From contig JBJCIZ010000080.1 in the NCBI GenBank assembly GCA_051294375.1, forward strand, positions 1-15,676: a DNA stretch of 15,676 bases, written 5' to 3'. The position numbers were made by a program, and so were the translations under genes. The notes under the pieces were generated by a model. The model saw only the letters and a program-made list of their open reading frames with translations. It made no database searches and was not told the DNA's origin. This DNA is from Paraspadella gotoi (Eukaryota > Animalia > Chaetognatha). Below are positions 1 through 15,676 of this stretch, piece after piece (position 1 is the first letter of the stretch; each line of letters begins with the position of its first letter).

Positions 1-272
1 AAAGTCTTAGGTACATTTCGTTGCCGGAACAAAGAAAATTAATTGATATCATAGTCTCAATATAGAGCCTTGAAATACCTCATTTTCTTCGTAATTTACC
101 CCTTTATTGATAAGAGCATTGTATTATAATAAAAAATGAAAACAATAATTTAACCATACAGCTACATGCATTAGCGTGTTATTGAAAGATTGTAGTTATT
201 TTTTAATAATTTTTTTTTATATTAATTTAGCTAATGGGCATTATGCAATGGTTTTAATTTTCACCTCAAGAT
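1..272. repeat. AT-rich dispersed repeat (host flank), inverted copy of 4041-4335
   Basis: Reverse complement aligns along its length with 4041-4335, e.g. gtcttaggtacatttcgttg (4-23) vs caacgaaatgtacctaagac, and aatttacccctttattgataa vs ttatcaataaaggggtaaatt. Many small indels. Confidence 0.9.
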
Positions 273-297: not shown

Positions 298-987
298 TGT
301 TTTGAACTAAGTTCGGAGAGTGGTTTCATTGACTTGCTAACTTTTCCGGGCTAACTCTACGCCAAATAAAGCGTTGGTATTTGTGGCGTAATGGCGCAGA
401 GGAGACGATGGCGCCGGTCCATGACGCTCAGTGGATGAGGACGACAAAGTCTCGGCCACAAAGGCGAAGCCCAGGACTTAACAAATAGTAGTTTAAAATG
501 AAGTGTTTGAAGTGAAGTTGTAGTAAAGTTAGAAGTCCTGGGCAAAGAATAACAAAACATTTAATACAAACTCAGCAAATATATATATATAAAGTTTAAA
601 GAATCTTTCTTACTTGTTTCTGAAGCCAAAATAGTAACAAAAAGTTGCTTCTCTCACAGGAAAGTCCACCAATCCAGCAATTACCAAATAGTTTCTAAAA
701 ACTAAAGATTCCGAGATTTCTAGAGAACTAGAAAGTGCAAGAATGACAGATCTATTGGTTCATATCGATAAATCGTAATTAAAATCTATCGAAATCCGAT
801 GAACCAATCAGAATCCGCCACGGAATCTGTACTTAAGTATATATATAACAAAAGTCTAAATCAAAAGATGTCTCTGTAATCGCTGGAAAGCTGGCAATTC
901 TTGCGTCAGTAAAAAGGACAAAAGAGCATCGGGAAAAGGTGGAGAAGCTGGATTTCTTCGTGATATATAGATAGTTATTTCGTAACA
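298..987 (-). repeat. 3' long terminal repeat (~690 bp)
   Basis: On the minus strand it starts TGTTACGAA (987) immediately after GGGGGG and ends TTCAAAACA (298). The terminal inverted repeat matches 7/9 with TG...CA ends. It contains TATA/CCAAT motifs and ATTAAA (560-565, minus). The second LTR is not in the window, so the 298 boundary is less sure than 987. Confidence 0.75.
560..848. promoter_or_regulatory. LTR promoter cluster, possibly bidirectional
   Basis: TATA runs at 580-593 and 838-848; CCAAT boxes at 669-673 (+), 754-758 (-) and 804-808 (+, gaaCCAATcag); TATCGATA (DRE-type) at 763-770; ATTAAA poly(A)-like signal at 560-565 (-). Confidence 0.55.
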
Positions 988-993
988 CCCCCC
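988..993 (-). other. Polypurine tract (plus-strand DNA primer)
   Basis: Minus strand reads AGCGGGGGG directly followed by TGTTAC, a typical Gypsy PPT/LTR junction. Confidence 0.75.
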
Positions 994-1817
994 GCTATTT
1001 GGGCATGCCAAAAGCGTTCCAAATACCTGAGCATGTCTAGAAATAACAATCTAAAATATCCGGTCGCAGGGGGATGGAAAGTAGAGAAAGGAAGAATTTT
1101 AAAATGCTGAGTATGCAAAAAATGCGCCCAGGACTTACTTGTTAAGCCTAAAAAACGTTGCATACAGAAACATTCTTCTTATAAAACGGTCGAACGGACA
1201 GACGGGCAGCGACGACAGACGACAACTGACCGGCGCTAACCCTCCTCCACACGCGTTTTAATTCAAGTTTCAATGACGAGACGAAGAGGGTACAAATTAT
1301 CAAGTAGATTAAATCGTGCGAGATGGAATAAGCTACGATTAAGTCGTAAAATCTAATGAACTATTCGACCCTGAACAGAATTTTGAAGTTCGACTTGTAC
1401 GAACGGATCACGAAGACGGCCGAAGATACCGCTCATCTACCCCACGAAATTGCGAGGCGCCGTGTGACGATAGCCGAAACGTACGAACCTGACTCGCAAA
1501 ATAAAAAAGGAAAAATTAAAACTTGAAACGGCGCGCATCGGTTAAGCCGCAAGACGACCGAGAAAAACAGAAAACACTAAAAAACTGGACTTCATTCTGA
1601 CAATTTTAAAAAACGTTTGCCCGCTAACTGAAAAAGACACAATTTGAAATCCTAAAAATAAATTGACACAAGGCAGGGGGGAATGAAACATTGGGAGCTA
1701 AATATCTCTAACTGGCTAACTGACTATTTCAATGATTTTCGGCTAACTATCTTCGGGCATTATACAAAAAATACTGAAGCAATACTAAACATATATGCCT
1801 TATATCGAAGTACAAAG

Positions 1818-1934
1818 CCGGTTATAACTGACCCCGGTGGCCGACTTTGAACTTGATATACTAATTAACTTAGGTCGAATCGCGAAGACCGGTTGTAACT
1901 GACCCCGGTGGCCGATCTCCGAACTCGACATATA
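1818..1934. repeat. Direct repeat, 2 copies, 71-bp period
   Basis: ccggttataactgaccccggtggccgactttgaacttgatata (1818) and ccggttgtaactgaccccggtggccgatctccgaactcgacata (1889). Confidence 0.9.
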
Positions 1935-3306
1935 TTCCACCCGAATCTTTTGACGGCAGTCAACCGACGTCAGAAACGTGAATATTAGTGGCAGCCCGAA
2001 TTGTAAGGACAATACGGCACCGCCGGACCAATCCGAATTCCAAAATGGAACCGTAAAGGTAAACTAATGGTATTCGATCATGGCGAAGCGATATACACGC
2101 TTTCTGAAATCCATCTTTCTGCCCCCCGCAGGAACGAAATCGGATCTCGAAGTTAATGACGGACTGACTAGGAACGCCATCAACCCCTTGAACGTCAAAC
2201 GATCTTGGCGGAGCCAAAAGGTGAATTTCCCAATCTCGAACAACCGAAACCGAAAGACACAGTAAAAATCTTCAAAAATTCAAATTTTTCTTACCGCAGG
2301 TAACCGCATAAAGGATCGACACATACTTCAGGCACATCAGGCACGCACACAACATCCTTCAACGATCCTTGATGAAGACCTCCGATGCGAAAGACCAAAA
2401 TTTATGAAGATCTGTGAACATTCGTCTCCTTACCATTTTAGAGACGCACAACCGTACTACGACACGAAAAACCTTAGACTAATCCTACGGGAAAAAATAG
2501 AAAATTGAGACGAAATTTGAAAAACACTAAATTTTCGGATCAATCTATACTAAACGTAAAGGTTGTAACAATTTCATGAAATAAAATGAATTGACAAGCC
2601 TTATCTACCTTATGTCGTAGTAGGTTGGCAAAAGAAAAAATGTTAAACTAAACCTAAAAATGAAATCAATACTATCAAATACTAAACCCGAAAAATACGT
2701 AAAATTTAAAAATCAAATACACTAAGAAATATAATCAGTATCAAATAAGCGTTAAAGGAAGTTACTTTATTGAGTTTTATTTTTGCTTTTAAGCCAACCC
2801 TTGCCGACAGCAACAGCAGCCAATTATTTCGGCAAGGTAAAACTATAAGGACTACGGATGGGTTTTTATTTTTTTTAGGCTGAGACCCTCAAACCCTGCA
2901 AAAAGCAGAAAACAAGCAATAACATGGATTAAACCTTTTATCGCTGCTCCCTGTTCAGCTCCCTGCTATTCTTATACAGGGAGAAAAACATACAAAAATG
3001 AGGACGTTACAAAGTCCAAAAGATTACGGAACTAGCTGGACATGCCAAAGAAAGCCGTGACGCAAACGTAAGGGACGGTAAGTACATTAAAGTGGGTTTC
3101 GGTAAGGTTGTTTTACCGCTGAGGAAAAACGGTTGGTTAACAAAAACAACCCTTCGTTACCGATATTTCGAAAAACTTCGGAGTTCCGACGACTTACCCA
3201 ACCAACTTGAATTGAAGCACGGCTATACGCTAGGGAAAGCCGCCCGCCTGAAGCGGCGCGCAGGGAGACAGCATGGACAGGGTAGACCGTCGCTCGAAAG
3301 CCTAAA

Positions 3307-4830
3307 TTAGAAGACAAGTTATCTGGTCGTTTTATAATGTTATTTTAATATTTATTTACAATTTACTGATAGGAAATGATTGTCAATATTTGTTGATGTA
3401 ACATTTCAAATCCAATCGACCACGCGTTGAAAAATAATCTAACAAAAAAATGGTCATTTTCAACGCCCAATTTTAAAACAAATCTTGCGGTTCGTTAATT
3501 TCTTTTTTGGTTCACTTTAAATAGCTTTTGCCGGAGTGACTTCATTGTAATTAAAAAAATTGATTTTTCTTTGATATCTTTTTGAAACCAAAAATGAATC
3601 TAGAACGATGAGACTGGTTCATATTAAAGCCATTAATTATGGGGCATCTTTTCCATGATAATTTTTTCTCAATATTCCACGGATTTTTAAAAATTCTGGT
3701 TCGGAATCTTAGTTCAAAAGTATAACAACTTTTGTGAAATTTAAATTAATCACACTTGGCTGTATTTAAAAATAAATAAATATAGATTCTGAAAGAAAAG
3801 ATATTTATGTTTCTGATATAAACAAAAATTTTCTGATACCTCAAATGTTTATATAATTACTAAGGATAATGAATTATCATTTTTTGTTGAAACAAAAAAA
3901 ATTTAAAAAGATTCATGAAGGAACCTAAAAAATATGATTTAAATATGAAAATTTAGGAGTTCAAACTTTGTTTCCGTGTGATTTTAAAAACTACTGACAT
4001 AGGCTAAAAGGCTATATTATCAGATTTTTAAATTTTGTGTATCTTCAGGTGCAAATTTAAAACCTTTTGCATAATGCCCCATTTAGCTATATGTAATATA
4101 ACTATGTTTTTATTAAAAAAAAGATAACAATCCTTTTAATAACACGCAAATGGCATGTAGCTGTATTGGGTTTAAAATTGTTGTGTTTTTATTTTTTATT
4201 ATTAATCAAGGCTTTTATCAATAAAGGGGTAAATTCAAAGGAAAATAAGGTTATTTTTTCAAGGCTCCATATTGATACTTTGATATCAATTGAATTTTCT
4301 TTGTTCCGGACCAACGAAATGTACCTAAGACATTTGTAGTTTCATTAGCTAATCTTTATTTTTTATAATTTAAGGGCCATTTGGCAAAAACAGTTAAGAA
4401 ACAAAAATGGACAACAAATTTTGAGAAAAAAATTTGGATTAATTGCTTATTATTTCTTACAATTTGTCGTCAATTTATTTTTTCGTATTGTGCTTTGGAA
4501 AGTTAGGCTAAAACCCAACAGGAATCGGATCCAGTGCATTTGACCGCTGTATAATTTAATTTGACTATACAGTAAATACCGCAAAAAATAAAAAAAAATT
4601 TAAAAAGAATTCAGAACCAAGCGTCGTTTATTTCAGTTATTTTTAGTTCAAGACCTTTATGGATTTTCTTTGTTTCGGCGGCGTTGGATAGCCAAACACT
4701 GGCCAGTTCAGATCATGCATGTTTTTGTAATATTAATGCGCTACTGGTGCAAAAAATGCTAGGAACCAAAATTTATCAGAAACGCTTCGTTTCTTTTCGA
4801 TTTTTTTTTTTAAGGCGAGCGACATATCTA
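3307..4830. mobile_element. AT-rich insert, probably a non-autonomous DNA-element-type repeat (boundaries approximate)
   Basis: Abrupt change to very AT-rich, CpG-poor sequence without the A-skew of the flanks. No ORF. Contains the inverted copy of 1-272. CTAAA occurs on both sides (3302-3306, 4831-4835), a weak TSD candidate. Confidence 0.45.
4041..4335. repeat. Inverted copy of repeat at 1-272
   Basis: Direct alignment with the reverse complement of 1-272. Confidence 0.9.
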
Positions 4831-5557
4831 CTAAAGTTGTAATTTTTGCGCGTCGACTACCGAACTCCGTCCGTCAAGAGTATTTTCGGAAATCGAGCAA
4901 AAAATATTTATTAAGCCGAAAAAATGTTTAGGGCAAAACTACGAAAAATATAAAGTATCCAAAGAGAGATAATCTATATTTTCCTTTCCTACTCTAACTT
5001 GTCGCCTCTCCTCTGAGCTACCAAAATAGACAAAACCTGAATAAATACAAAAAATGGACGAATGGGGTGTTTTTAAGCCGTGGGGTGGTTTGCAACACCG
5101 CTCCGTTAGAAGGGTTTCGTCTTTCCGGTCTTGTCCTTGGCGGGAAAGACACGCTTTGGCGAGCGTTTGGTTTTTGTTCCCTCTCACTCAACCAAAAACC
5201 TTTGACCTTTGACTCAATTTCACCTTTTTCTCAACTCATACAAAAACCTAAAGACGAACGCCGACATACGTACAAAAGTGTGTGACGACGTCAAAGTTCA
5301 TACTTAAAAATAAAAAAACTTAAAAATTAAACCTGGTTTATTTCGTGGGTTAAGGGACTTAAATACTAAAAAACAAAATATAAAATTTTCTAAAAAAACG
5401 AACAATTATTTTTAAACCCTAAGGATTTCTAAAAATACTAAATATTTCATATCGAAAATTGGCCGTTCCCCCCGCACGAAACGGAGAGGAAAGAACCTGT
5501 TCGTACAAAAAGAAAAAATTTTCAAAAAAAATTTAGCAAAAAAATCGCTAAGTCCCT

Positions 5558-5685
5558 AAAAATACAAGGGAGAACTACGTTAGTAATACCTTTATCGGAG
5601 ATAATCGAGGCCGTTACAAAAAAATACCAAAGGGGAGAACTACGTAGTTAATATACGCTTTATCCGGAGATAATTCGAGCCGTAC
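5558..5685. repeat. Imperfect tandem duplication, 2 x ~60-68 bp
   Basis: aaaaatacaagggagaactacgttagtaatacctttatcggagataatcgaggccgttac followed by aaaaaaataccaaaggggagaactacgtagttaatatacgctttatccggagataattcgagccgtac. Confidence 0.9.
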
Positions 5686-7386
5686 GAACGATGAAAGTGA
5701 GGTTAACCTGCGAAAACCAAACATAACAAAAATAACAATATTACTCAAAAAAATAAATATTTATTTAAACTAAAAAATTTAAGAAAAAACGTAAGCACGC
5801 TCTATTCTCAGAAAATGTCCGCCGCACAAGCTTCTCTACGCCCGACGAAACCTCCGAAATTCTAGCTTTAACCCGAGATCGTTCGTCACGACCGGCGCCC
5901 ACTATGAACCGGAAGCGTCGTCCACGCAGGCGAAACCGAATGTTGGCGTGCATTTAACACGTGGGAAAATTTGGGGAAAAAATTCGCACGCAGTGAGAAA
6001 AAGGGGGCGTAGGCTTACGTCGCCATCGTCGGATGCATCGAAAACGATCCGATGGCCGCGTTTACTAAAAATTCCTTTACATAAACAAAAAAATTCTAAA
6101 AATTCCGAGACTTTTGAAAAAGGCAAAAATCGAGATTGAAAAAAGTCAAATTATTAAAATGGTCAAACGAGGAGAGGGGTGGTAGCGGGCCGACTTTCCG
6201 CGGCACGGACAAGCCCTCCCACGAACCTGCCCCCGCAGCCCATGGAAAAACACCCTCTCAGCGATGTTTTGTTTACCGGAACGGAGTCAAAGTAAACAAA
6301 ACAAGGTGAGACTCGTCACAAAGGCGCCCCTACGCCATCGAGTTAACGTAGTGCAGAAATATTCTCGCCGTTGAAAGAACCCCCCTCCTCGACCTAGCGG
6401 AGAGGAGAAGACGTCTGGGACGGAACCACTCTCAAACCCGGGGGGGCGCGGCGCCAGAAAGTTAATAATAAAGTTTCTTATGCCTTATGAAACGTCTTGA
6501 TGTTTAATGGTACCTTAATAAATAATCAAAGCATATGATATTCAGCTGTCTTACCGGCGAACAATTGTAATTCTATATGAATATTCAACAGTAAAAATAT
6601 AAATATTAATCACAATTATTCGCAAAGAAAAAGTAATAGACGCAATAGATCCAAATGTTAACAGCTCTTTCTTATATCCATTCAAAACGGAATGAGAAAT
6701 GTTTACACTCTTTATACAATATTAAAGTCTTTGTTACATGCAGCTTCTTTCCGCAGCGACGGACAGCAGACGACGGGCCCCGCTGACCGAACGGGCCGTA
6801 TTGAATAATAAGTGGTCGTCAGGACTTTACAGCTCCTCCCGCACCCACCAAGATCCTGTCCTCAGGACAAGCAGGGCAGCAGGGCGTATATTCTGGATGA
6901 CCATCCTTAACGGTAGCCATCTTGGATTTTTCATTCACTGACCAAGCTGTCTTCGACATCCGATGCTCTTATGTGCCACGCGGGATTTTAATAGAATTTT
7001 CATAAAGTACTCAACTAGTTGTCAAAGGATGAAGTTAGGATCTCTTTTTAATTCCGCTTTCTTTACGGCAAAACCAGAGTGGTACGGGTCCCCAGAAAAA
7101 GATAAAGATCATACTCCTAGTCCCAAGCAGAGGACAGGTTTTCAACAGTTATTTTATATGCCAAGAGATCATTTATGCATCGAAAAGAAATTGTATATGG
7201 GATCCCAAAAGAAATAGAAGAGGTATCCCATGCTTCCCTAGAATCGCCGGAGACAACAAATTTGTTAGAGTTCCGTAGTGTTCCTTCACGATTTAGTTTG
7301 AGTATTTTTTTTTTCTTGTCTATTGCTTATTACAGATACTGAATGAAAATGTAAACACATCGGCTATTCAAACAAAAGAAAAACAA

Positions 7387-9963
7387 TCACTGAATCCTAT
7401 ACAACATGTCAGTTTCTGCAGCCATATGATACAACAAACACGGGGAGATGTCAGACGAGTTGGCGAGGCGACAGGTTTTCATGGCGCTGCAATATGTCCT
7501 TTTCGTTTTCCTTTCAATACTTTTCCACGAACCTAACCGTCGCTCTTTTTTATTAAGTCCAGTTGGCTCCAGAATTTTCGGACACATAGCGAACCGAGCT
7601 AAAGCGGCGCGCAACGCCTTGGCGCCAACAGTAATGATGTCCTTCTCCAGTAACAGCTTCCAGATATTTTTCTGGTCGGCATCCATCTCACCTTCAACGA
7701 TCCAAATAAACACCTTACGCGATCCAGCGATCGAGAAAGCTAATATGACCAAAGGACGTTGACGATGCGCTTCGCTTGAAATTCTATAAGAAGCACAGAT
7801 TGGGCGTGAAGAATTTCTTAAAACGACTTTTAATTCACGATTATCCTCAGGCATAATAATCGTGTAATCACGCGAGTGATCAGAATCTTTTTCTTGCCAA
7901 CAGATTGGGTCGCGATACGCGTCGCGATTTGTAACTACAAATTCGCCTTCACTCCAATACCTTGTCACTGCAGTGAACAAATTTGGCCGAGGAGCTAGAA
8001 TGGGAAGGGCCCTGGCCCTATCATCAGTTCCGTCTCCAACGAAATCGGCGATCATCTGAATAAGGTCTCTCTCAGGCCCTTCCTGCTTATCCCATGCTCT
8101 TATAAACTCATTCAATTTCTTCCTAAGAATATGTTGCTTATAAGCATTCGGAAAGGGCATGTCCGCAATGGATGAAAGGAATTTTATCAAAGGATCCAAC
8201 TTTACCTCACTGGTAAACCCGATGTATTTGTCAATCGCTGTTGGCCCTAGATATGGAGATTCTAGAATTTTCGCCTCGCGATCCCTTTCGCTAAGACCAA
8301 AGAATGAGCCTATCTCTTCCAGGAGAGCGGGAATATATTTCCTGTGCCTTAGGCCGTATTGGGCCCAAAAAATCGGCGCATTTCCTAATACGAGAATGGC
8401 TGAAAACGGCGGAACATCCAATTCCCTAACCAACCGGTCCATTTCGTGAATCATGGGTCTATACATGACTGCCCTCAAAAACCTCTTTTTCTCCGACAGA
8501 GTCCATCGACATCGCAACTCCTCTAGCAGCTCACGTTGCTTATTCCTCGACACTCGCATTTGTCTGACGTTCAATAAAAAGGCCACTGCCTCCGGTCCTG
8601 CATCTCGACCTATTGGCAACACTTTTTCCAAAATTGCCGTCGCAGTTGTCTGACGAAACGGTTTAAGCAACCGTTTTAGTGCTTGTTGTTGCTTTAATGT
8701 CAACCTTTTAACCAATATGGGTTCGTCCTGTAACTCAGATGAATCCTCTTCCGCGATCTCAATGATTGGAGAAGCATCAACATCAATCATTTCTTCCTCC
8801 ATCACCGACTCTATCACAACAACACGCTGATCCTCGGTAGTAGCAGAACTAACAGACCTATTGTGAAAAGGATCCCAAGGGGTTTGCGGAGTTTTTGCCG
8901 CCTCCAACTCCATCTTTTTCACCTGTTCCGGAGTTAACCAGATCTCATCGTCGTCCTGAACCTTAATGCCCGATGGTCCGGATATCGTGGGTTTGAACCA
9001 AACGTTTTTATTCGGAAAAACGTGAGTCAATACCACAACATCCCTAACCAAATCGTCCTGCAAGGCCTCGTGAATCGCTTTTGCCAAGAAATATACATCT
9101 TCTAAGATGTAGCGGCGTTGTTCCTTTTTCCAGAAAGGTAAGTACCACGCGCTAAGTGTGACGGCTGGGTCCTTCTTTAGCGTGAATCCATCAAACGCAT
9201 TTTCAATAATTCGCAAGACACTGCCCGTCATTTCATTCTTTTCCTCTTCTGAGACTTGCCAAGCCTCACAAAAAAAATCCGAAGCCTCTATGTACTTCAC
9301 TCCTCTCAAAAATCCATCGTAAAACGAATTGATCAGATTCGCGAGGTCATCGAAAATATTCACGTTTATAAACACTACAGCAGGATGCGTGAGCAGCTCC
9401 TCTAATTTAGGAGGCATACGAGGTCGTCCCGAAAAGTCATTATTGGAGAGGTTAACGCAATGAACTGCGAAGGTTTCTAACCCCAACTCGTCATCTACCG
9501 CTGTCATGGCGATGCCCATGGCATCCGCCTGCAATACACCTTTCAATCTTCGTGCTTCCATCTCCGACCAATAATTGTCAACTTTCGCGAGTGGAGACTT
9601 AGCTTTCCACCTCTTTCTCAATGTCTTGGTCCAATTTTTTCTCTGTTCTAATTCGTCTTTCGTAATTCCATCCATCAACAACTCTTTCTCATGCCAAGAT
9701 GTGAAGCGGGGAGGGAGGACGTGTGGCCGCTGCATGCAGCAGACTCCCTCAATGTCCATGACAATGAGGGATACGCGCCCCTCAATCTTCATCTTGTCTG
9801 CCCTTTTTAATTGAACGTCTAAAAACGAATTCATTTTCTTAGAGTCGTGACAGATCTTTCCGATTATCTCGTGATCCTCTACTGGAAATGACAAATCAGT
9901 TTTACGTGTTTCGCCTCGCCTTCTTCGCCATTTTTCCTGTAATTTGTTCCTAAAGTCTGACAT
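7387..9963 (-). CDS. ORF3: DEDDy 3'-5' exonuclease (RNase D/WRN/Mut-7 family) plus second degenerate exonuclease domain, ~858 aa from first ATG (frame open from 10032)
   Basis: ExoI VMDIEG (9748-9756), ExoII LLTHPAVVFINVNIFDDL (9346-9351) and ExoIII SAWYLPFWKKEQRRYILED (9097-9111). The C-terminal LVILAFSIAGSRKVFIW...KLLLEKDIITVG...YHMAAETD repeats the fold without the catalytic acids. No signal peptide or TM segment is evident. Confidence 0.8.
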   Translation of the reverse strand: MSDFRNKLQEKWRRRRGETRKTDLSFPVEDHEIIGKICHDSKKMNSFLDVQLKRADKMKIEGRVSLIVMDIEGVCCMQRPHVLPPRFTSWHEKELLMDGITKDELEQRKNWTKTLRKRWKAKSPLAKVDNYWSEMEARRLKGVLQADAMGIAMTAVDDELGLETFAVHCVNLSNNDFSGRPRMPPKLEELLTHPAVVFINVNIFDDLANLINSFYDGFLRGVKYIEASDFFCEAWQVSEEEKNEMTGSVLRIIENAFDGFTLKKDPAVTLSAWYLPFWKKEQRRYILEDVYFLAKAIHEALQDDLVRDVVVLTHVFPNKNVWFKPTISGPSGIKVQDDDEIWLTPEQVKKMELEAAKTPQTPWDPFHNRSVSSATTEDQRVVVIESVMEEEMIDVDASPIIEIAEEDSSELQDEPILVKRLTLKQQQALKRLLKPFRQTTATAILEKVLPIGRDAGPEAVAFLLNVRQMRVSRNKQRELLEELRCRWTLSEKKRFLRAVMYRPMIHEMDRLVRELDVPPFSAILVLGNAPIFWAQYGLRHRKYIPALLEEIGSFFGLSERDREAKILESPYLGPTAIDKYIGFTSEVKLDPLIKFLSSIADMPFPNAYKQHILRKKLNEFIRAWDKQEGPERDLIQMIADFVGDGTDDRARALPILAPRPNLFTAVTRYWSEGEFVVTNRDAYRDPICWQEKDSDHSRDYTIIMPEDNRELKVVLRNSSRPICASYRISSEAHRQRPLVILAFSIAGSRKVFIWIVEGEMDADQKNIWKLLLEKDIITVGAKALRAALARFAMCPKILEPTGLNKKERRLGSWKSIERKTKRTYCSAMKTCRLANSSDISPCLLYHMAAETDMLYRIQ

Positions 9964-10454: not shown

Positions 10455-13400
10455 TTATTCCTGTTCCGCTTCCGTCTCTTCGTCCGATTGAACTTGGCCT
10501 CTTTCCAAACGGGCGTAATCAACTCTCGGCCGGCGTTGTCTCCTGGGTGTTGATTCTTTCAATCCTGGCGCATTGAAACTCGATAAATTTCTAATTTCAC
10601 GGCTCGTTGATGTTCCCACAGATTCAAAGCTGATTATTGGCCGAATTGATTGACGAAACATTTTTCCTCTCCCTCGTGGAATCAACGGAGAGTCGGAATA
10701 TGAGCCACGGATTGCTCTTGTACTTATATTGAAATCTATTTGTATATCTTCTTGTTCCGCGGGTTCGGTCTCCGCCTCCGACTCACCCCCTTCTGGAGAT
10801 CGAGTTCCAACCGATCGATCGTAATCCGGAATTATCGATTCAGACGGAGAATTCTGTTCGTTGATGACCGCGTCGTCGCCAGCGTCGCTAAAGAGAGAAT
10901 CGTCGGAAGAATAATCGCAAACCTCCTCCGTCATAGTAAGCCTCGGCTTTTCTGCCCGCTTTTCAACTTCCTGCAACCATAGTTGCAATCCAGTAGGGAG
11001 ACATCCCTCTTTCATTTCTTCTTTCATGATATCCAATGAACTGTGATCTTCCATTTGATTTCGTCCCTCTTCCGCCGTGTAACATGATTCAGGTTCGCGA
11101 AACTTTTTCAAATCACATCCCGGGCGAATCTCTTCATCTCCGCGCTCATTTATTATCACATATGCATTACCTTTTCCTTCTCCGTGAGGATGTAATTCCT
11201 TCTTAACTGTCCATGGGCCTTCGTAATGAATACTTAGTTTATCTCTTTTTTCTCGCGGCAATAATTTCAGGACTTTTTGCCCCTGTTGAAAAATTTCCAC
11301 GTGTTTACCTTTAACACTCTGCCGAACCATCTGCTCCTGATATTTTATCATTTGTTCGTTTCTCATGTTCCTCATGTTGTCGACCTTGTCTTCCATTTCC
11401 TTCACATACATTCTCATTGGTTTACGAGTGCCCTGTAATTCCAACGGAGTTTCTAATTGATTTTTCAAGGGGATTCGCGGCTCGCGACCAAACATCAATT
11501 TAAATGGTGAATATCCCGTGGCTGGATGAGGAATAGAGTTGTAAGTAAACTCAATCCATGCAAGATATTTAGACCAACGTTTTCCGAACTGATTTACTCG
11601 TTTAGCCAACTCGCTAATAATGGTTCTATTTTTTCTTTCCACTTGGCCCTGTTTCTGAGGGTGGTAAGTCATGGAAAATTCTTTCTTAGTCTCATAGATC
11701 TTACACAACGCTTCCACTAGTCTATTCTTGAATTCAGGCCCATTATCCGATCCCCATACTACGGGAAAACCGAACCTCGTAATAAACTGTTCCAATTTCC
11801 TCGCGACCGTTGTCGATTCTGCCCCTACAATGGGAAATAACACACAGTATCTTGTGAATCTGTCCTCAATGACAAGGATGTGATCAAATCCATCTGAAGG
11901 CGTTCCAATTTTCAATAAATCCGTGGCCACGTGATGCATTGGAAAGTTTGCATTTTGTGGTATCATGGGAACTATTTTTTTTCCCTTAGATCTCATTGCC
12001 TGACACTCAAAACATCTGTTCACCTTTTCCGTGATGTCTCGGCCCATGCCCGGCCACACGCAAAAGGAATCTAGCCTCGCCTTCGCCCTTTTTGCCGAAG
12101 GGTGACCACTACGATAATCGCCATGCGCGCAGTCCATGACCTTTGGAACGAGTGAAGCGGGGATTACTACGCGTAAACATTGTTCCCCTTTGTGCGATTT
12201 TGCATGATACAACATTCCGTCTATTATCATCAACCCGTCACACTGTTTGGAAAACCATTGTGGTATCCGTAACATCTGTAGTTTTGTCTTAATGTCTTCT
12301 GGTTTTTCCATCAATATCTGAATAACTTGACTGATAACAGCATCTGCCACTTGCGCATTCTTTATGTTATTTATTTCATCTTTATCAGATATTAATGATG
12401 ACAATGGAACCTCTGCGTCACAACATGCTCCTAGCAAAATGTATTCTTCTTTTGCCGTATTATCTGGTGGATCGGCATGTGGAGCTCTTGATAAGGCATC
12501 CGCGTCTGCGTGAGCCTTTCCAGCTTTGTGTTTTATCACGAAATCATATGTGGATAACTCCAGTGCCCATCTAGTTCTCTTCCCAGAAGCATCCTTTCTC
12601 GTGTCTACACTGAGACATGACAAGAGTGGTTTATGATCTGTATATATCACAAATGGCTTGAATCTCAGGTAGTGGGAGAATTGTCTCACTGCCCAGATTA
12701 TACCATACATTTCCTTATCAAAGGGGGCCCAAGCCCGTTCTGCAGTGTTCAGTTTCTGACTCGCAGCGGCTACTAGCACTTCCTTCCCCCTTCCGTCTTT
12801 TTGCGTCAAGACTGCTCCCACGGTGTTTTGACTACCGTCGGGTTTCACAAAAAATTGCTTCTCAAAGTCTGGATAAGCCGTGGCCGTACCTGCCATCAAT
12901 TCTTTTTTCAATTCTAAAAATGCTTCTATACATTGTTCATCCCATGTAAACTCTTGATCTTTTTTCAACAGATCTGTCAGTGGCTCCGCGATCTTTGCAA
13001 AATTTGGGATGTGACTACGATAGTAGTTAGCCAAACCGAGAAAACCTCTGACCTGTTTGACATCAGTGGGCTCTGGCCAAGCATCAACTTTGGCCAAGTT
13101 GACTGGATCCGGTTTTATTCCTTCATTGTTTAGCCTAAATCCTAGTACCGAAACCTCGCCTCTCGCGAAATCGCATTTCTCCGGGTGTAGCTTCATTCCT
13201 GCCCGTTTCATGGCGTCCAAGGCTTTTTCCAACATATCCAGATGTGTCTCAGCGTCAGGAGTCGCTATCAAAATGTCGTCCAAATACGCGAGCATATATT
13301 CAATTGGAAGTCCTCTGAAAACCAATTCTACTAGCGCTTGAAATGAAGCTGAGCTATTTTTAGCTCCCATTGGTAAACGTATATATTCCAAATGTCTGCA

Positions 13401-14084
13401 ACCATCTGAAAAGGCAAAGTATTTTCTCTGACTCTCCAGAACTTCCATGTGATAATATCCTTTCAAGAGATCCAGCTTTGAAAAGACTTGTGGATTTTTC
13501 AACCTACGGACACCATCTTGGATGTTTGGAAGAGGGAAATGTGCCTTTTCTGTAACTTTATTCAATCTCCTGAAATCCGTGCAATATCTCCAAGAGCCAT
13601 CTTTCTTCTTTACCAGAACAATTGGTGCATTGTATGGGCTTTCTGATTCTCGAATTGTTCCTAATGCCAACATTTTATCAGTTTCTCTATTTACTGCTTC
13701 TTGGACGTCAGGAGGTGGAGCCCGATAGTTTGGCACAAAAACCGGCTTATCAGTTGTCAACTTTATTTGATGATATGCTAATTCAGTCCTACCCAGATCA
13801 GATTCCGTCTTAGCGAAGACATCGCTGTAACGATCTACCAATTCGCGAAATCGTCGCTCTTGGTCTTCATTAAAACATTCGCCACATTTCACTGGCCCAA
13901 ATTGTTTTTCTGCGGTGGACTCATCTTCGTCCGCTTCCGGGATAAGACCAGGCATCTCCTCATCGTCTTCCTCATTTGGCTCCAATACATACGGATTGTA
14001 TCGACTCTCTTCCGCCGACATATTCGCTATTGGTTTCGCTTCGTCATCTGGTTCCTCTTCTAGTTCTTCCATTGTTGGAAACAA
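10455..14084 (-). CDS. pol: Pol polyprotein: reverse transcriptase, RNase H, integrase
   Basis: RT: SPYNAPIVLVKKKDGSWRYCTDFRRLN, LPMGAKNS, YLDD (13275-13286). RNase H: VKPDGS, DKEMYGI, YTDHKPL, ADALSR. Integrase: HHCC (AHGDYRSGH...CFEC), D-D-E (VATDL, SDNGPEF, QVERKNR) and a GPW (GPY/F) motif. The TTG start is not the real start; this is the continuation of the upstream PR frame. Confidence 0.97.
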   Translation of the reverse strand: MFPTMEELEEEPDDEAKPIANMSAEESRYNPYVLEPNEEDDEEMPGLIPEADEDESTAEKQFGPVKCGECFNEDQERRFRELVDRYSDVFAKTESDLGRTELAYHQIKLTTDKPVFVPNYRAPPPDVQEAVNRETDKMLALGTIRESESPYNAPIVLVKKKDGSWRYCTDFRRLNKVTEKAHFPLPNIQDGVRRLKNPQVFSKLDLLKGYYHMEVLESQRKYFAFSDGCRHLEYIRLPMGAKNSSASFQALVELVFRGLPIEYMLAYLDDILIATPDAETHLDMLEKALDAMKRAGMKLHPEKCDFARGEVSVLGFRLNNEGIKPDPVNLAKVDAWPEPTDVKQVRGFLGLANYYRSHIPNFAKIAEPLTDLLKKDQEFTWDEQCIEAFLELKKELMAGTATAYPDFEKQFFVKPDGSQNTVGAVLTQKDGRGKEVLVAAASQKLNTAERAWAPFDKEMYGIIWAVRQFSHYLRFKPFVIYTDHKPLLSCLSVDTRKDASGKRTRWALELSTYDFVIKHKAGKAHADADALSRAPHADPPDNTAKEEYILLGACCDAEVPLSSLISDKDEINNIKNAQVADAVISQVIQILMEKPEDIKTKLQMLRIPQWFSKQCDGLMIIDGMLYHAKSHKGEQCLRVVIPASLVPKVMDCAHGDYRSGHPSAKRAKARLDSFCVWPGMGRDITEKVNRCFECQAMRSKGKKIVPMIPQNANFPMHHVATDLLKIGTPSDGFDHILVIEDRFTRYCVLFPIVGAESTTVARKLEQFITRFGFPVVWGSDNGPEFKNRLVEALCKIYETKKEFSMTYHPQKQGQVERKNRTIISELAKRVNQFGKRWSKYLAWIEFTYNSIPHPATGYSPFKLMFGREPRIPLKNQLETPLELQGTRKPMRMYVKEMEDKVDNMRNMRNEQMIKYQEQMVRQSVKGKHVEIFQQGQKVLKLLPREKRDKLSIHYEGPWTVKKELHPHGEGKGNAYVIINERGDEEIRPGCDLKKFREPESCYTAEEGRNQMEDHSSLDIMKEEMKEGCLPTGLQLWLQEVEKRAEKPRLTMTEEVCDYSSDDSLFSDAGDDAVINEQNSPSESIIPDYDRSVGTRSPEGGESEAETEPAEQEDIQIDFNISTRAIRGSYSDSPLIPRGRGKMFRQSIRPIISFESVGTSTSREIRNLSSFNAPGLKESTPRRQRRPRVDYARLERGQVQSDEETEAEQE

Positions 14085-14350
14085 AGGGAATCCCTCACCT
14101 GGTTGCGATCGTCGTCGACAAAGCCATACCTAACAGCTAGGGACGCTATCGGCAAGCCTTCAGTCGGCGTCTGGCGCACTTGACTGGACTTCTCGCCCGC
14201 ATCCAAACAGTCTGCCGGTAGTGGGATGTCGACGACCGTTGGGTTGATGGTATCAACCAATGCAACCGGCGTTCCCGCGCTAATATTAATCTTAGAAGGC
14301 CATTGATTAAAAATTTCTAATGTCATTATTTCATTTCTTGGGTCAAGCAC
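14060..14350 (-). pseudogene. pol: Frameshifted middle segment of pol (post-protease, dUTPase-fold-like spacer)
   Basis: TLEIFNQWPSKINISAGTPVALV resembles the degenerate dUTPase-like beta region often found between PR and RT in animal Gypsy elements. It overlaps neighbouring frames at both ends. Confidence 0.7.
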
Positions 14351-15003
14351 TGTGTGCCTGCAACTTGTGGTACTTCTTTGTGATACTCAGATGAAAAGGG
14401 TCGTGCATATATGGCATATGGATGTTCATTATTGTCAGTCCTACTTACTGAGGGTCCCGCCAAATAAACCTTCACTAGATTCCGCGTTAGTGGGGGTAGT
14501 GTTACTGACTCAAAAGCTGCTAGATGAGGTGGTGGAGGCTCAACAGGAGGTGGTGGACGATACAGTGGAATTCTTACCTGATCAAAGGTAACTGCATTAG
14601 TAGTGAAATCTATAACTGCTTTGTGTTGTTCCAAAAATGGTAACCCGATAACCACGGGGTGAACCAAGTTAGGAACAATGTTAAATTCTGCTCTAAAGTG
14701 TTTATTATTGTCTCCTATTTGGAAATCGACAAGGGCCTTTCCTGTGGATTTAATTGGGCATTTGTTTATACTTATGCATAAGGCGGGTTTATCATTCAAT
14801 AACCGTACTTTGGAGGGAGGTAATAGACATAATGTTTCCTCATCTATACAATTTCCTCCTTCAGCACCTGTATCTATTAATGTGGTTATGGTGGTGGATC
14901 CTATTTTTAAGTTAACTGAGCATCTGCAATCGTTTTTCGTTCCAGGGTTTGGATCTTTCCCAGTGGCTTCCCCCTGGTTGGCAGCACTGGCTATCAAAAA
15001 CCC
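14326..15003 (-). CDS. pol: Aspartic protease (N-terminal part of pol, -1 frame relative to gag)
   Basis: TLIDTGAEG (DTG 14866-14874) and VVIGLPFLEQHKAVID retropepsin motifs. Confidence 0.92.
   Translation of the reverse strand, partial: GFLIASAANQGEATGKDPNPGTKNDCRCSVNLKIGSTTITTLIDTGAEGGNCIDEETLCLLPPSKVRLLNDKPALCISINKCPIKSTGKALVDFQIGDNNKHFRAEFNIVPNLVHPVVIGLPFLEQHKAVIDFTTNAVTFDQVRIPLYRPPPPVEPPPPHLAAFESVTLPPLTRNLVKVYLAGPSVSRTDNNEHPYAIYARPFSSEYHKEVPQVAGTQCLTQEMK
14960..15003 (-). promoter_or_regulatory. -1 programmed ribosomal frameshift signal (gag-pol)
   Basis: G GGU UUU heptamer (15003-14997) in the gag frame directly before the gag stop, a 6-nt spacer, then stem CCAGUG (14990-14985)/CACUGG (14965-14960). 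A -1 shift enters the protease frame (GF-LIAS). Confidence 0.85.
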
Positions 15004-15676
15004 GCGCCAGGGTACCACACTCCGTCTGGATGTAACACATATCCATAACGACCGACCTCCGGGCTCTGGAAATTATTCCATTCTTGGTTGTAATCATATG
15101 CAGCCTGCCCGGCCTCCATGCAAGGATGGGTAAATGAATTGACATTTGCTTGCTCCGCAGCCACCGCTTCATTAAACTGATTCTCTGAATTATCTATTTC
15201 TCTTGATGCTGCTGCTATTGCTGGTGGTGCTGTGGCTGAAGCAGGGTTGGTTCCGGGAGTGATGAACCTTTGTGACTGTCCAGTTGCCTGGAATCCTCTA
15301 GGGAATCCACCTCGCCCAAAACCTCGGTACGGTCTTCTTGCCACTGTGTACGATGGAGTCGCACGTGAGTACGTGACTCCAGATGCTCCAGTCAGAGACG
15401 TCTGTAGATCTTTTATAGCGTTGGTCATCTTGGTGAACCCTTCCTCCATCTCCTTCTTCATTATCGTCATCGAATCCTGCGTCGCGGCTTGAGACGCTTC
15501 CACTCTTTGTATCGCCATTTCATTTATCTTTATTTTATGCTTCAGGTCCAAGTACTCGTTACTCGTCAACCGATTGGATTGTTCCCTTGCCGCTGGTGCC
15601 GGCACTTGTGCCGCCAACAATCCTTGAGACACCGCCCCTGGGTCTGAAATCGTTTCCACTGGTCTGGATGCTTCCC
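14994..15676 (-). CDS. gag: Gag, C-terminal part (frame open to window edge)
   Basis: Lies directly upstream of PR and is joined to it by the slippery site. Contains a coiled-coil-like segment and an RG-rich motif RRPYRGFGRGGFPRGF. No stop codon up to position 15676. The capsid domain is not visible. Confidence 0.8.
   Translation of the reverse strand, partial: EASRPVETISDPGAVSQGLLAAQVPAPAAREQSNRLTSNEYLDLKHKIKINEMAIQRVEASQAATQDSMTIMKKEMEEGFTKMTNAIKDLQTSLTGASGVTYSRATPSYTVARRPYRGFGRGGFPRGFQATGQSQRFITPGTNPASATAPPAIAAASREIDNSENQFNEAVAAEQANVNSFTHPCMEAGQAAYDYNQEWNNFQSPEVGRYGYVLHPDGVWYPGAGF

What the first reader, a model, noticed from the sequence alone, without database searches (positions are those of the whole stretch)
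1000..7260. 6.4 kb 3' region appears to hold a spliced antisense transcription unit
Seen: plus-strand donor/acceptor pairs define short introns at 2059-2131 (AAG|GTAAAC...ctttctgccccccgcAG), 2221-2299 (AAG|GTGAAT...tttttcttaccgcAG) and 2837-2878 (AAG|GTAAAA...ttttttAG). There are further acceptors at 2793, 2979, 6238 (ctgcccccgcAG) and 6756 (cttctttccgcAG), and donors at 3078 (GTAAGT) and 6306 (AAG|GTGAGA). Base skew flips here: the plus strand is A-rich, whereas the ORF region is A-rich on the minus strand. An ATG-less open frame runs 2302-2508 after the 2299 acceptor. Inference: introns antisense to the genomic RNA survive retrotransposition, so the element could carry a multi-exon gene or lncRNA. 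I could not join the exons into one unbroken ORF, so it is decayed, error-laden or non-coding.
Basis: partly seen in the sequence, partly recalled or inferred. Interest (0 to 1): 0.7.

Follow-up and report, generated by a model that had tools for sequence, protein, structure and literature searches.

The report
Antisense spliced mini-gene in Gypsy retrotransposon
The stretch is the long tail of a Gypsy-type jumping gene; about 600 bases of it, not the whole 6 kb, likely form a small spliced gene read on the opposite strand, which would be an unusual built-in regulator for this kind of element.

Summary
The window is a Ty3/Gypsy LTR retrotransposon on the minus strand: gag, pro, pol, an 856-aa ORF3 with a DEDDy exonuclease domain, then 6.4 kb to the 3' LTR. 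The signal is confined to about 2000-3100. Bases 3302-4830 are a nested insertion that some copies lack. One public run holds many variant copies. It shows no junction-spanning contig. However, three edges of its eight listed contigs fall exactly where spliced and unspliced forms would diverge (2130, 2222, 2298; chance about 1e-5, noticed after the fact). Also, 6 of 8 variants in exons 2-3 are synonymous in the one open plus frame (p about 0.004). AATAAA follows the stop at 2508. Best reading: a compact antisense, spliced accessory gene at about 2000-2600, with no start codon found in this copy. Against it: the run may be DNA, splicing intron 2 leaves the conserved frame, some copies carry non-triplet indels, and the product has no homologue. 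Sites at 2793-3078 and 6238-6756 are unsupported.

The parts
382..987 (-). 3' LTR; starts TG right after the polypurine tract; far end at 382 is inferred
   Evidence: Sequence; far end from an imperfect inverted repeat only. X1 summed depth 640-790.
988..999 (-). Polypurine tract
   Evidence: Sequence. An X1 contig of depth 413 runs from inside the LTR across it into the internal region (from_end values in table 3).
2007..2058 (+). Putative antisense exon 1, open part; true 5' end and start codon not found
   Evidence: Donor 2059 scores 3.8. Open frame is in phase with exons 2 and 3.
2059..2131 (+). Putative antisense intron 1, 73 nt
   Evidence: X1 contig 1 starts at 2130, the predicted divergence point.
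2132..2220 (+). Putative antisense exon 2, 89 nt; one plus frame open
   Evidence: X1 contig 1 spans exactly 2130-2222, 0 gaps, depth 50.4. Stops per plus frame 3/0/2.
2221..2299 (+). Putative antisense intron 2, 79 nt
   Evidence: X1 contig edges at 2222 and 2298. The unspliced form is also present (contig 2226-2323, depth 60.8).
2300..2585 (+). Putative antisense exon 3: open frame to stop 2506-2508, AATAAA at 2580
   Evidence: 5 of 7 listed variants here are synonymous in that frame. X1 depth falls from 1230 to 36 just after the stop. AATAAA position.
2793..3078 (+). Further splice-like motifs (acceptors 2793, 2878, 2979; donors 2837, 3078); unsupported
   Evidence: Motifs present; beyond the AATAAA; no variant or contig-edge support.
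3302..4830 (.). Nested AT-rich insertion (28% GC) with a 5-bp target duplication; contains a high-copy repeat also found in the flank
   Evidence: X1 joint 3295->4831, depth 92.7; CTAAA at 3302 and 4831; 4041-4334 is 81% identical, inverted, to 1-272.
7387..9957 (-). ORF3, 856 aa: N-terminal DEDDy 3'-5' exonuclease plus a C-terminal region of unknown function
   Evidence: 57 homologues; model pLDDT 84; WRN exonuclease Z 20.0, rmsd 2.3, 186 aligned; catalytic acidic residues and Tyr conserved.
10455..14129 (-). pol: RT, RNase H, integrase
   Evidence: Pfam RVT_1, RT_RNaseH, Integrase_H2C2, rve.
14326..15072 (-). Protease-bearing ORF; out of frame with pol in this copy
   Evidence: Weak RVP hit E=0.046. 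Relatives carry pro and pol in one ORF.
14994..15674 (-). gag-position ORF, cut by the window end
   Evidence: ORF list; assigned by position only, no Pfam gag hit.

Best explanation
The region is the pol-to-3'LTR tail of a Ty3/Gypsy retrotransposon, and about 2000-2600 of it likely is a small antisense gene with two short introns that is likely spliced and was probably protein-coding in the family. How it would work (inferred): RNA polymerase II starts on the plus strand in or downstream of the 3' LTR. The transcript is spliced at 2059/2131 and 2221/2299, or from 2059 straight to 2299, and ends near the AATAAA at 2580. The packaged genomic RNA runs the other way, so the introns are never removed and the gene is copied intact. 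Exon 1 joined directly to exon 3 keeps the conserved frame and would end a small protein at 2508. Including exon 2 gives a stop three codons into exon 3, so exon 2 would act as an off-switch isoform. The likely role is control of the element's own expression or copy number, through the peptide, through pairing with genomic RNA, or both. The tail is carried by many more variant copies (or transcripts) than pol, probably internally deleted derivatives. Shown: element anatomy, motifs and their local excess, the insertion, the contig edges and the synonymous bias. Inferred: splicing, strand, promoter, translation and function.
For: (1) Plus-strand donor/acceptor pairs: 3 against 0.2 in shuffles (0 of 200) at strict cut-offs; minus strand 0. 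(2) The strings shared by spliced and unspliced forms are predicted to start at 2130 and 2298 and to end at 2059 and 2222. Among the 8 of 190 contigs that one search lists, one spans 2130-2222 and one starts at 2298: three exact hits; Poisson chance 1e-5, or 3e-4 allowing one base. (3) 6 of 8 tabulated variants in exons 2-3 are synonymous in the only open plus frame (2.1 expected, p=0.004); the other plus frames give 0 of 8 and 1 of 8. Adding 3 exon-1 differences read from a loose-end cell gives 9 of 11 (p=0.0003). (4) X1 depth collapses right after the stop, and AATAAA follows 72 nt later. (5) A loose end inside intron 1 does not overlay the window without gaps (compared by eye). (6) The LTR-PPT-tail junction has depth 413 against 14-21 for ORF3 and pol.
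Against: X1 is only guessed to be RNA, and its coding-region depths (9, 19-21, 28) look like whole multiples, as DNA would give. Contig edges can also arise 30 nt from ordinary substitutions; I noticed the coincidence after the fact and saw only 8 of 190 contigs. Intron sequence is as deep as exon sequence (195-418 against 155-1257). Splicing intron 2 after exon 2 leaves the conserved frame, and no ATG frame longer than 50 codons crosses exons 2-3 on any chain of 16 candidate introns. An abundant variant has two single-base insertions in exon 3, and loose ends suggest other non-triplet indels in exons 1 and 3. All 3 tabulated variants in intron 1 also sit at third positions of the exon-1 frame (1 synonymous). 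The overlapping minus frame gives 5 of 8 synonymous, though it has 4 stops in exon 3. A codon model from the element's own ORFs finds no coding signal in 1650-2550 (16 of 40 shuffles score as high). The stop deficit is not significant (219 of 1000). No homologue was found. All copy data come from one run of one study.
Confidence: 0.5

Rival explanations
1. A piece of a host gene with its introns was captured in antisense orientation and is now decaying cargo, amplified passively by non-autonomous copies.
For: Explains real splice sites, the skew flip, the missing start exon, the frame conflict and the non-triplet indels.
Against: The synonymous bias is among element copies, which implies selection after capture. 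No Pfam family or protein homologue points to a donor gene.
Confidence: 0.2
2. The tail is non-coding cis-acting sequence (packaging, export, regulation) of a family of derivatives. The splice motifs, contig edges and synonymous excess are coincidences picked out after the fact.
For: No junction contig; enrichment disappears at lax cut-offs and for single-site counts; no codon signal; the LTR has the same skew.
Against: Three separate signals point to the same 600 bases and strand: pair excess, exact contig edges and synonymous bias.
Confidence: 0.17
3. The family has an intronless antisense ORF, like the plant Retand and Grande ORFs, and this copy or its assembly is broken by single-base indels and stops. 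The 'introns' are coding.
For: One plus frame has only 3 stops in 185 codons over 1954-2508, and third-position variation runs on into intron 1. X1 lists 141 indel differences from the window.
Against: The contig covering the in-frame stop at 2263 shows no listed difference there. Exact contig edges at three splice points and the pair excess are left unexplained. The stop deficit is not significant.
Confidence: 0.13

Closest known systems
[quoted passage not shown]
   Same: Gypsy element with a multi-kb pol-3'LTR region (2.9-6.6 kb there; 4.9 kb here without the insertion) holding an antisense gene; Grande's is transcribed from its own promoter.
   Different: Those are long ORFs, mostly with a TRP28 domain, and neither paper contains the word 'intron'. 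Here the unit is small, has introns, has no TRP28, and lies behind a sense exonuclease ORF3.
Deltaretrovirus antisense genes (HTLV-1 HBZ, HTLV-2 APH-2, BLV AS1/AS2); PMC10186651, passages read
   Same: Spliced antisense transcripts from the 3' LTR side with regulatory RNA and/or protein roles: the working model here.
   Different: Exogenous vertebrate retroviruses with env and tax. No sequence relation was found; this is an analogy only.
Bdelloid rotifer Juno/Vesta LTR retrotransposons with DEDDy ORF3; PMC5408684, part 2 of 5 and passages read
   Same: Gypsy-type element whose ORF3 downstream of pol is a DEDDy 3'-5' exonuclease with intact catalytic residues.
   Different: Those carry a dUTPase between PR and RT and a DEED motif. 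This element shows neither, its ORF3 is 856 aa with a second domain, and the passages read describe no antisense gene.
Drosophila hydei micropia antisense RNAs (as cited in PMC7264820)
   Same: Animal Gypsy-type element with antisense transcripts from its own promoter.
   Different: Described as non-coding RNAs of 1.0 and 1.6 kb; the passage mentions no introns.

Membership tests
Ty3/Gypsy LTR retrotransposon | PR-RT-RNase H-integrase order | tested here: met
   RT 173-333, RNase H 396-528, integrase 656-824; protease upstream, weak (E=0.046), supported by relatives.
Ty3/Gypsy LTR retrotransposon | Polypurine tract abutting a TG-starting 3' LTR | tested here: met
   Sequence at 981-999.
Ty3/Gypsy LTR retrotransposon | Paired LTRs, primer-binding site, target-site duplication | not testable with these tools
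   The window ends inside the gag-position ORF; no genome is held.
Bdelloid Juno/Vesta DEDDy-ORF3 elements | DEDDy exonuclease ORF3 downstream of pol | tested here: met
Bdelloid Juno/Vesta DEDDy-ORF3 elements | dUTPase between protease and RT | tested here: not met
   No dUTPase hit in the pro, intervening or pol frames; none listed for the 41 best-scoring pol hits.
Bdelloid Juno/Vesta DEDDy-ORF3 elements | DEED variant of the catalytic motif | tested here: not met
   D, E, D, D at the four positions here and in nearly all aligned homologues.
Plant Retand/Tat antisense-ORF elements | Long pol-3'LTR region | tested here: met
   6.4 kb from the ORF3 stop to the LTR; 4.9 kb without the insertion.
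Plant Retand/Tat antisense-ORF elements | ORF longer than 600 bp in that region, usually antisense | tested here: not met
   Longest plus-strand stop-to-stop frame in 1000-7260 is 114 aa.
Plant Retand/Tat antisense-ORF elements | TRP28 (PF04195) domain | tested here: not met
   No Pfam hit in any of the six frames read through stops.
Deltaretrovirus HBZ/APH-type antisense genes | Spliced antisense transcript starting in the 3' LTR | tested here: inconclusive
   Splicing is supported only indirectly; the start site was not mapped.
Deltaretrovirus HBZ/APH-type antisense genes | Retroviral env/tax genome context | tested here: not met
   ORF3 is an exonuclease-domain protein; no env-like ORF or Pfam hit downstream of pol.

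The most novel reading that the evidence does not exclude
A clade of unnamed Gypsy elements carries, behind a WRN/Nibbler-like exonuclease ORF3, a multi-exon antisense gene under purifying selection. It is amplified mainly by deleted derivatives and is switched between coding and off isoforms by exon-2 inclusion. That would be an HBZ-like regulatory circuit that arose independently in a non-retroviral LTR element, with the exonuclease possibly acting on the small RNAs or duplexes the antisense transcript generates.
Probability: 0.25. Interest if true: 0.72.

Novelty: new variant of a known kind. Interest (0 to 1): 0.47.

Why it matters
Annotation of LTR elements looks for long ORFs and misses genes hidden by introns on the opposite strand; one review asks for such transcripts to be sought (PMC7264820, passage). 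If real, this shows that the antisense strand of a long Gypsy tail is a safe place to keep intron-containing genes through reverse transcription. It gives three exact junctions that one RT-PCR could test, and it pairs an antisense RNA source with an element-encoded DEDDy nuclease. My six paper searches (listings only, apart from seven papers read in passages) showed no such case outside plants and retroviruses; subscription journals and supplements were not searched.

Tried and rejected
No host genome is held. No RNA holder on record is listed; X2 and X3 give only 3 short matches. X1 has no cover at 2788-3015, which proves nothing either way. The metagenome DNA scan used a mistyped motif, and its 2 loci are chance hits, so that collection was in effect not searched. 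Viral contigs gave nothing for ORF3, pol or two DNA motifs. The word-index search found no ORF3 homologue, whereas the full HMMER search found 57. The single-sequence fold was useless (pLDDT 36). Rfam: 2 weak hits far below threshold. Antisense frames: no Pfam family (in one search one sub-threshold hit, E=0.25), no homologue of 44-140 aa, Atlas best 0.76. Four look-ups of earlier findings were empty. Joints skipping 72-123 nt in X1 lack splice ends. The sigma-70 scan is irrelevant to a eukaryotic element. The host was not identified; the closest pol relatives (61% identity at best) are unnamed ENA contigs. I considered the C2H2-like look of one exon-3 frame and dropped it: it has no cysteines, and only 1 of 8 variants is synonymous in it. 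The C-terminal half of ORF3 was not folded or searched on its own.
Full report
What the window is. The minus strand carries a Ty3/Gypsy LTR retrotransposon. It has a gag-position ORF cut by the window end, a protease ORF, and pol with RT, RNase H and integrase in Gypsy order. An 856-aa ORF3 follows, then 6.4 kb without a long ORF, then a polypurine tract and a TG-starting LTR at 987. The closest pol relatives (61% identity at best) are unnamed ENA contigs; no genome is held, so the host is unknown. ORF3 has 57 homologues. With their alignment it folds at pLDDT 84, and its N-terminal domain matches WRN exonuclease (Z 20.0, rmsd 2.3, 186 residues), Nibbler and RNase D, with the four acidic residues and the tyrosine conserved. 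DEDDy ORF3s are described from bdelloid rotifer elements (PMC5408684), but those have a dUTPase and a DEED motif, which this element lacks.

Checking the observation. With a generic splice matrix (recalled, not trained on the host) and 200 local shuffles, plus-strand donor-acceptor pairs 40-100 nt apart number 3 in 1000-7260. Shuffles give 0.2, 0.7 or 2.0 at strict, medium and lax cut-offs (0, 6 and 66 of 200 reach 3). The minus strand and the coding region show no excess. All three pairs lie in 2059-2878. The skew flip is real, but the LTR shares it. The region is not one unit: run X1 has a joint 3295->4831 at depth 92.7, CTAAA flanks the skipped part, and that part is 28% GC and contains a high-copy repeat. 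So 1.5 kb is a later insertion in this copy.

Evidence from other copies. One run holds part of the stretch's words: X1, share 0.15, RNA by guess only. It matches pol and ORF3 almost perfectly (3790 nt with 0 substitutions and 2 gaps; 1764 nt with none) at depth 14-21, while the LTR and tail reach 55-820 in many variant contigs. Joints that drop pol or ORF3 suggest deleted derivatives.

Two indirect signals remain. First, in an assembly graph holding both spliced and unspliced forms, contigs should break where the forms diverge: starts at 2130 and 2298, ends at 2059 and 2222. Of the 8 contigs listed (of 190 laid), one spans exactly 2130-2222 and one starts at 2298. Uniform chance of three exact hits is about 1e-5, or 3e-4 allowing one base. 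I noticed this after the fact, and edges also arise 30 bases from ordinary substitutions: the right edge of the second contig (2388) is of that kind. Second, 6 of the 8 tabulated substitutions in exons 2 and 3 are synonymous in the only open plus frame, against 2.1 expected (p=0.004); the other plus frames give 0 and 1. The overlapping minus frame gives 5 but has 4 stops in exon 3. Three exon-1 differences read from a loose-end cell are also synonymous in the frame that intron 1 connects to exon 2 (9 of 11 overall, p=0.0003). The remaining tabulated variants lie outside these exons and were not counted. Depth drops from 1230 to 36 just after the stop at 2508, and AATAAA lies at 2580.

What does not fit. 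Intron 2 is 79 nt, so exon 2 joined to exon 3 leaves the conserved frame and stops after three codons; only 2059 joined to 2299 (241 nt) keeps it. No upstream start was found: over chains of up to three of 16 candidate introns, the longest ATG frame crossing exons 2-3 is 50 codons. An abundant variant has two single-base insertions in exon 3, and loose ends hint at other non-triplet indels. The three tabulated variants in intron 1 sit at third positions of the exon-1 frame, which favours the intronless-ORF rival. A codon model from the element's own genes sees nothing here, the stop deficit is not significant, and the product has no family or homologue. X1's coding-region depths look like whole multiples of about 9.5, as DNA would give; in that case the contig edges would need another cause, such as variation at the degenerate splice positions next to AG and GT. 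Sites at 2793-3078 and 6238-6756 have no support beyond the motifs.

How it most likely works (confidence 0.5). A plus-strand transcript begins in or below the 3' LTR, is spliced at introns 1 and 2 or skips exon 2, and ends near 2600. Its introns are invisible on the genomic RNA and so survive reverse transcription. It would make a small protein ending at 2508, an antisense RNA able to pair with the 3' part of the genomic RNA, or both, and so tune the element's expression. In this copy the coding chain lacks a recognisable start. Splicing, promoter, translation and function are all inferred. Rivals: captured intron-containing host DNA now decaying (0.2); a non-coding tail with coincidental signals (0.17); an intronless antisense ORF broken in this copy (0.13).

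Comparison with what is known. Antisense accessory ORFs in long pol-3'LTR regions are well known in plant Retand/Tat elements (PMC11963269, PMC7264820; passages); these are long, mostly TRP28 ORFs, and neither paper mentions introns. Spliced antisense genes from the 3' LTR are known in HTLV and BLV (PMC10186651; passages). Passages of PMC6431247, PMC4402516, PMC13547354, PMC13486581 and PMC6338049 added no matching case. The finding works like these systems but fails their membership tests. I rate it a new variant of a known kind, interest 0.47: plausible, cheap to test, and resting on indirect evidence from one run.

Noticed in passing
window 7387-9957 (-): ORF3 is an intact DEDDy exonuclease (closest folds WRN, Nibbler, RNase D) fused to a well-predicted C-terminal region of about 440 aa with no Pfam hit; 57 unnamed homologues, several of 900-1170 aa. 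The only retrotransposon DEDDy ORF3s in the papers I read were from bdelloid rotifers.
   Followed up: partly
window 7673 -> 15545: X1 holds a form that skips 7.9 kb (depth 9; neighbouring contig depths 19.1 = 9.7 + 9). It has a 4-base microhomology, fuses the gag-position ORF in frame to the ORF3 C-terminus, and also reads GT..AG on the plus strand (acceptor 6.0, donor -2.0). A deletion derivative is likelier than a long antisense intron.
   Followed up: partly
window 6867 -> 10797 and 10816 -> 14067: X1 joints suggest a derivative lacking ORF3 and most of pol (depths 23.9 and 17.7; side only 20 for the first).
   Followed up: no
window 1-272 and 4041-4334: High-copy repeat (X1 depth about 2400) in the flank and, inverted, inside the nested insertion; the insertion ends resemble short inverted repeats (TAGA...TCTA).
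   Followed up: partly
window 14130-14356 (-): The pro-pol frame is broken twice in this copy, whereas relatives have one ORF; may be decay or assembly error.
   Followed up: partly
window 1799-1932: Tandem duplication of about 62 nt (80% identical, 27-nt core 96%) just upstream of putative exon 1, next to a 62-codon plus frame (1662-1850, ATG at 1683) and several CTAAC/CTGAC motifs.
   Followed up: partly
window 1206-1232 and 6753-6787: Short similar GC-rich stretches near the two ends of the tail (best local match 9 bases, E=0.06); may be chance.
   Followed up: partly
window 2598-2673: Highest X1 depth in the zoomed stretch (2873, 1844), just after the AATAAA: a conserved non-coding block of unknown role.
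   Followed up: no
window 3002-3310 (+): 102-codon ATG-less plus frame that reads through the 3078 donor and ends at the insertion; no Pfam hit.
   Followed up: partly
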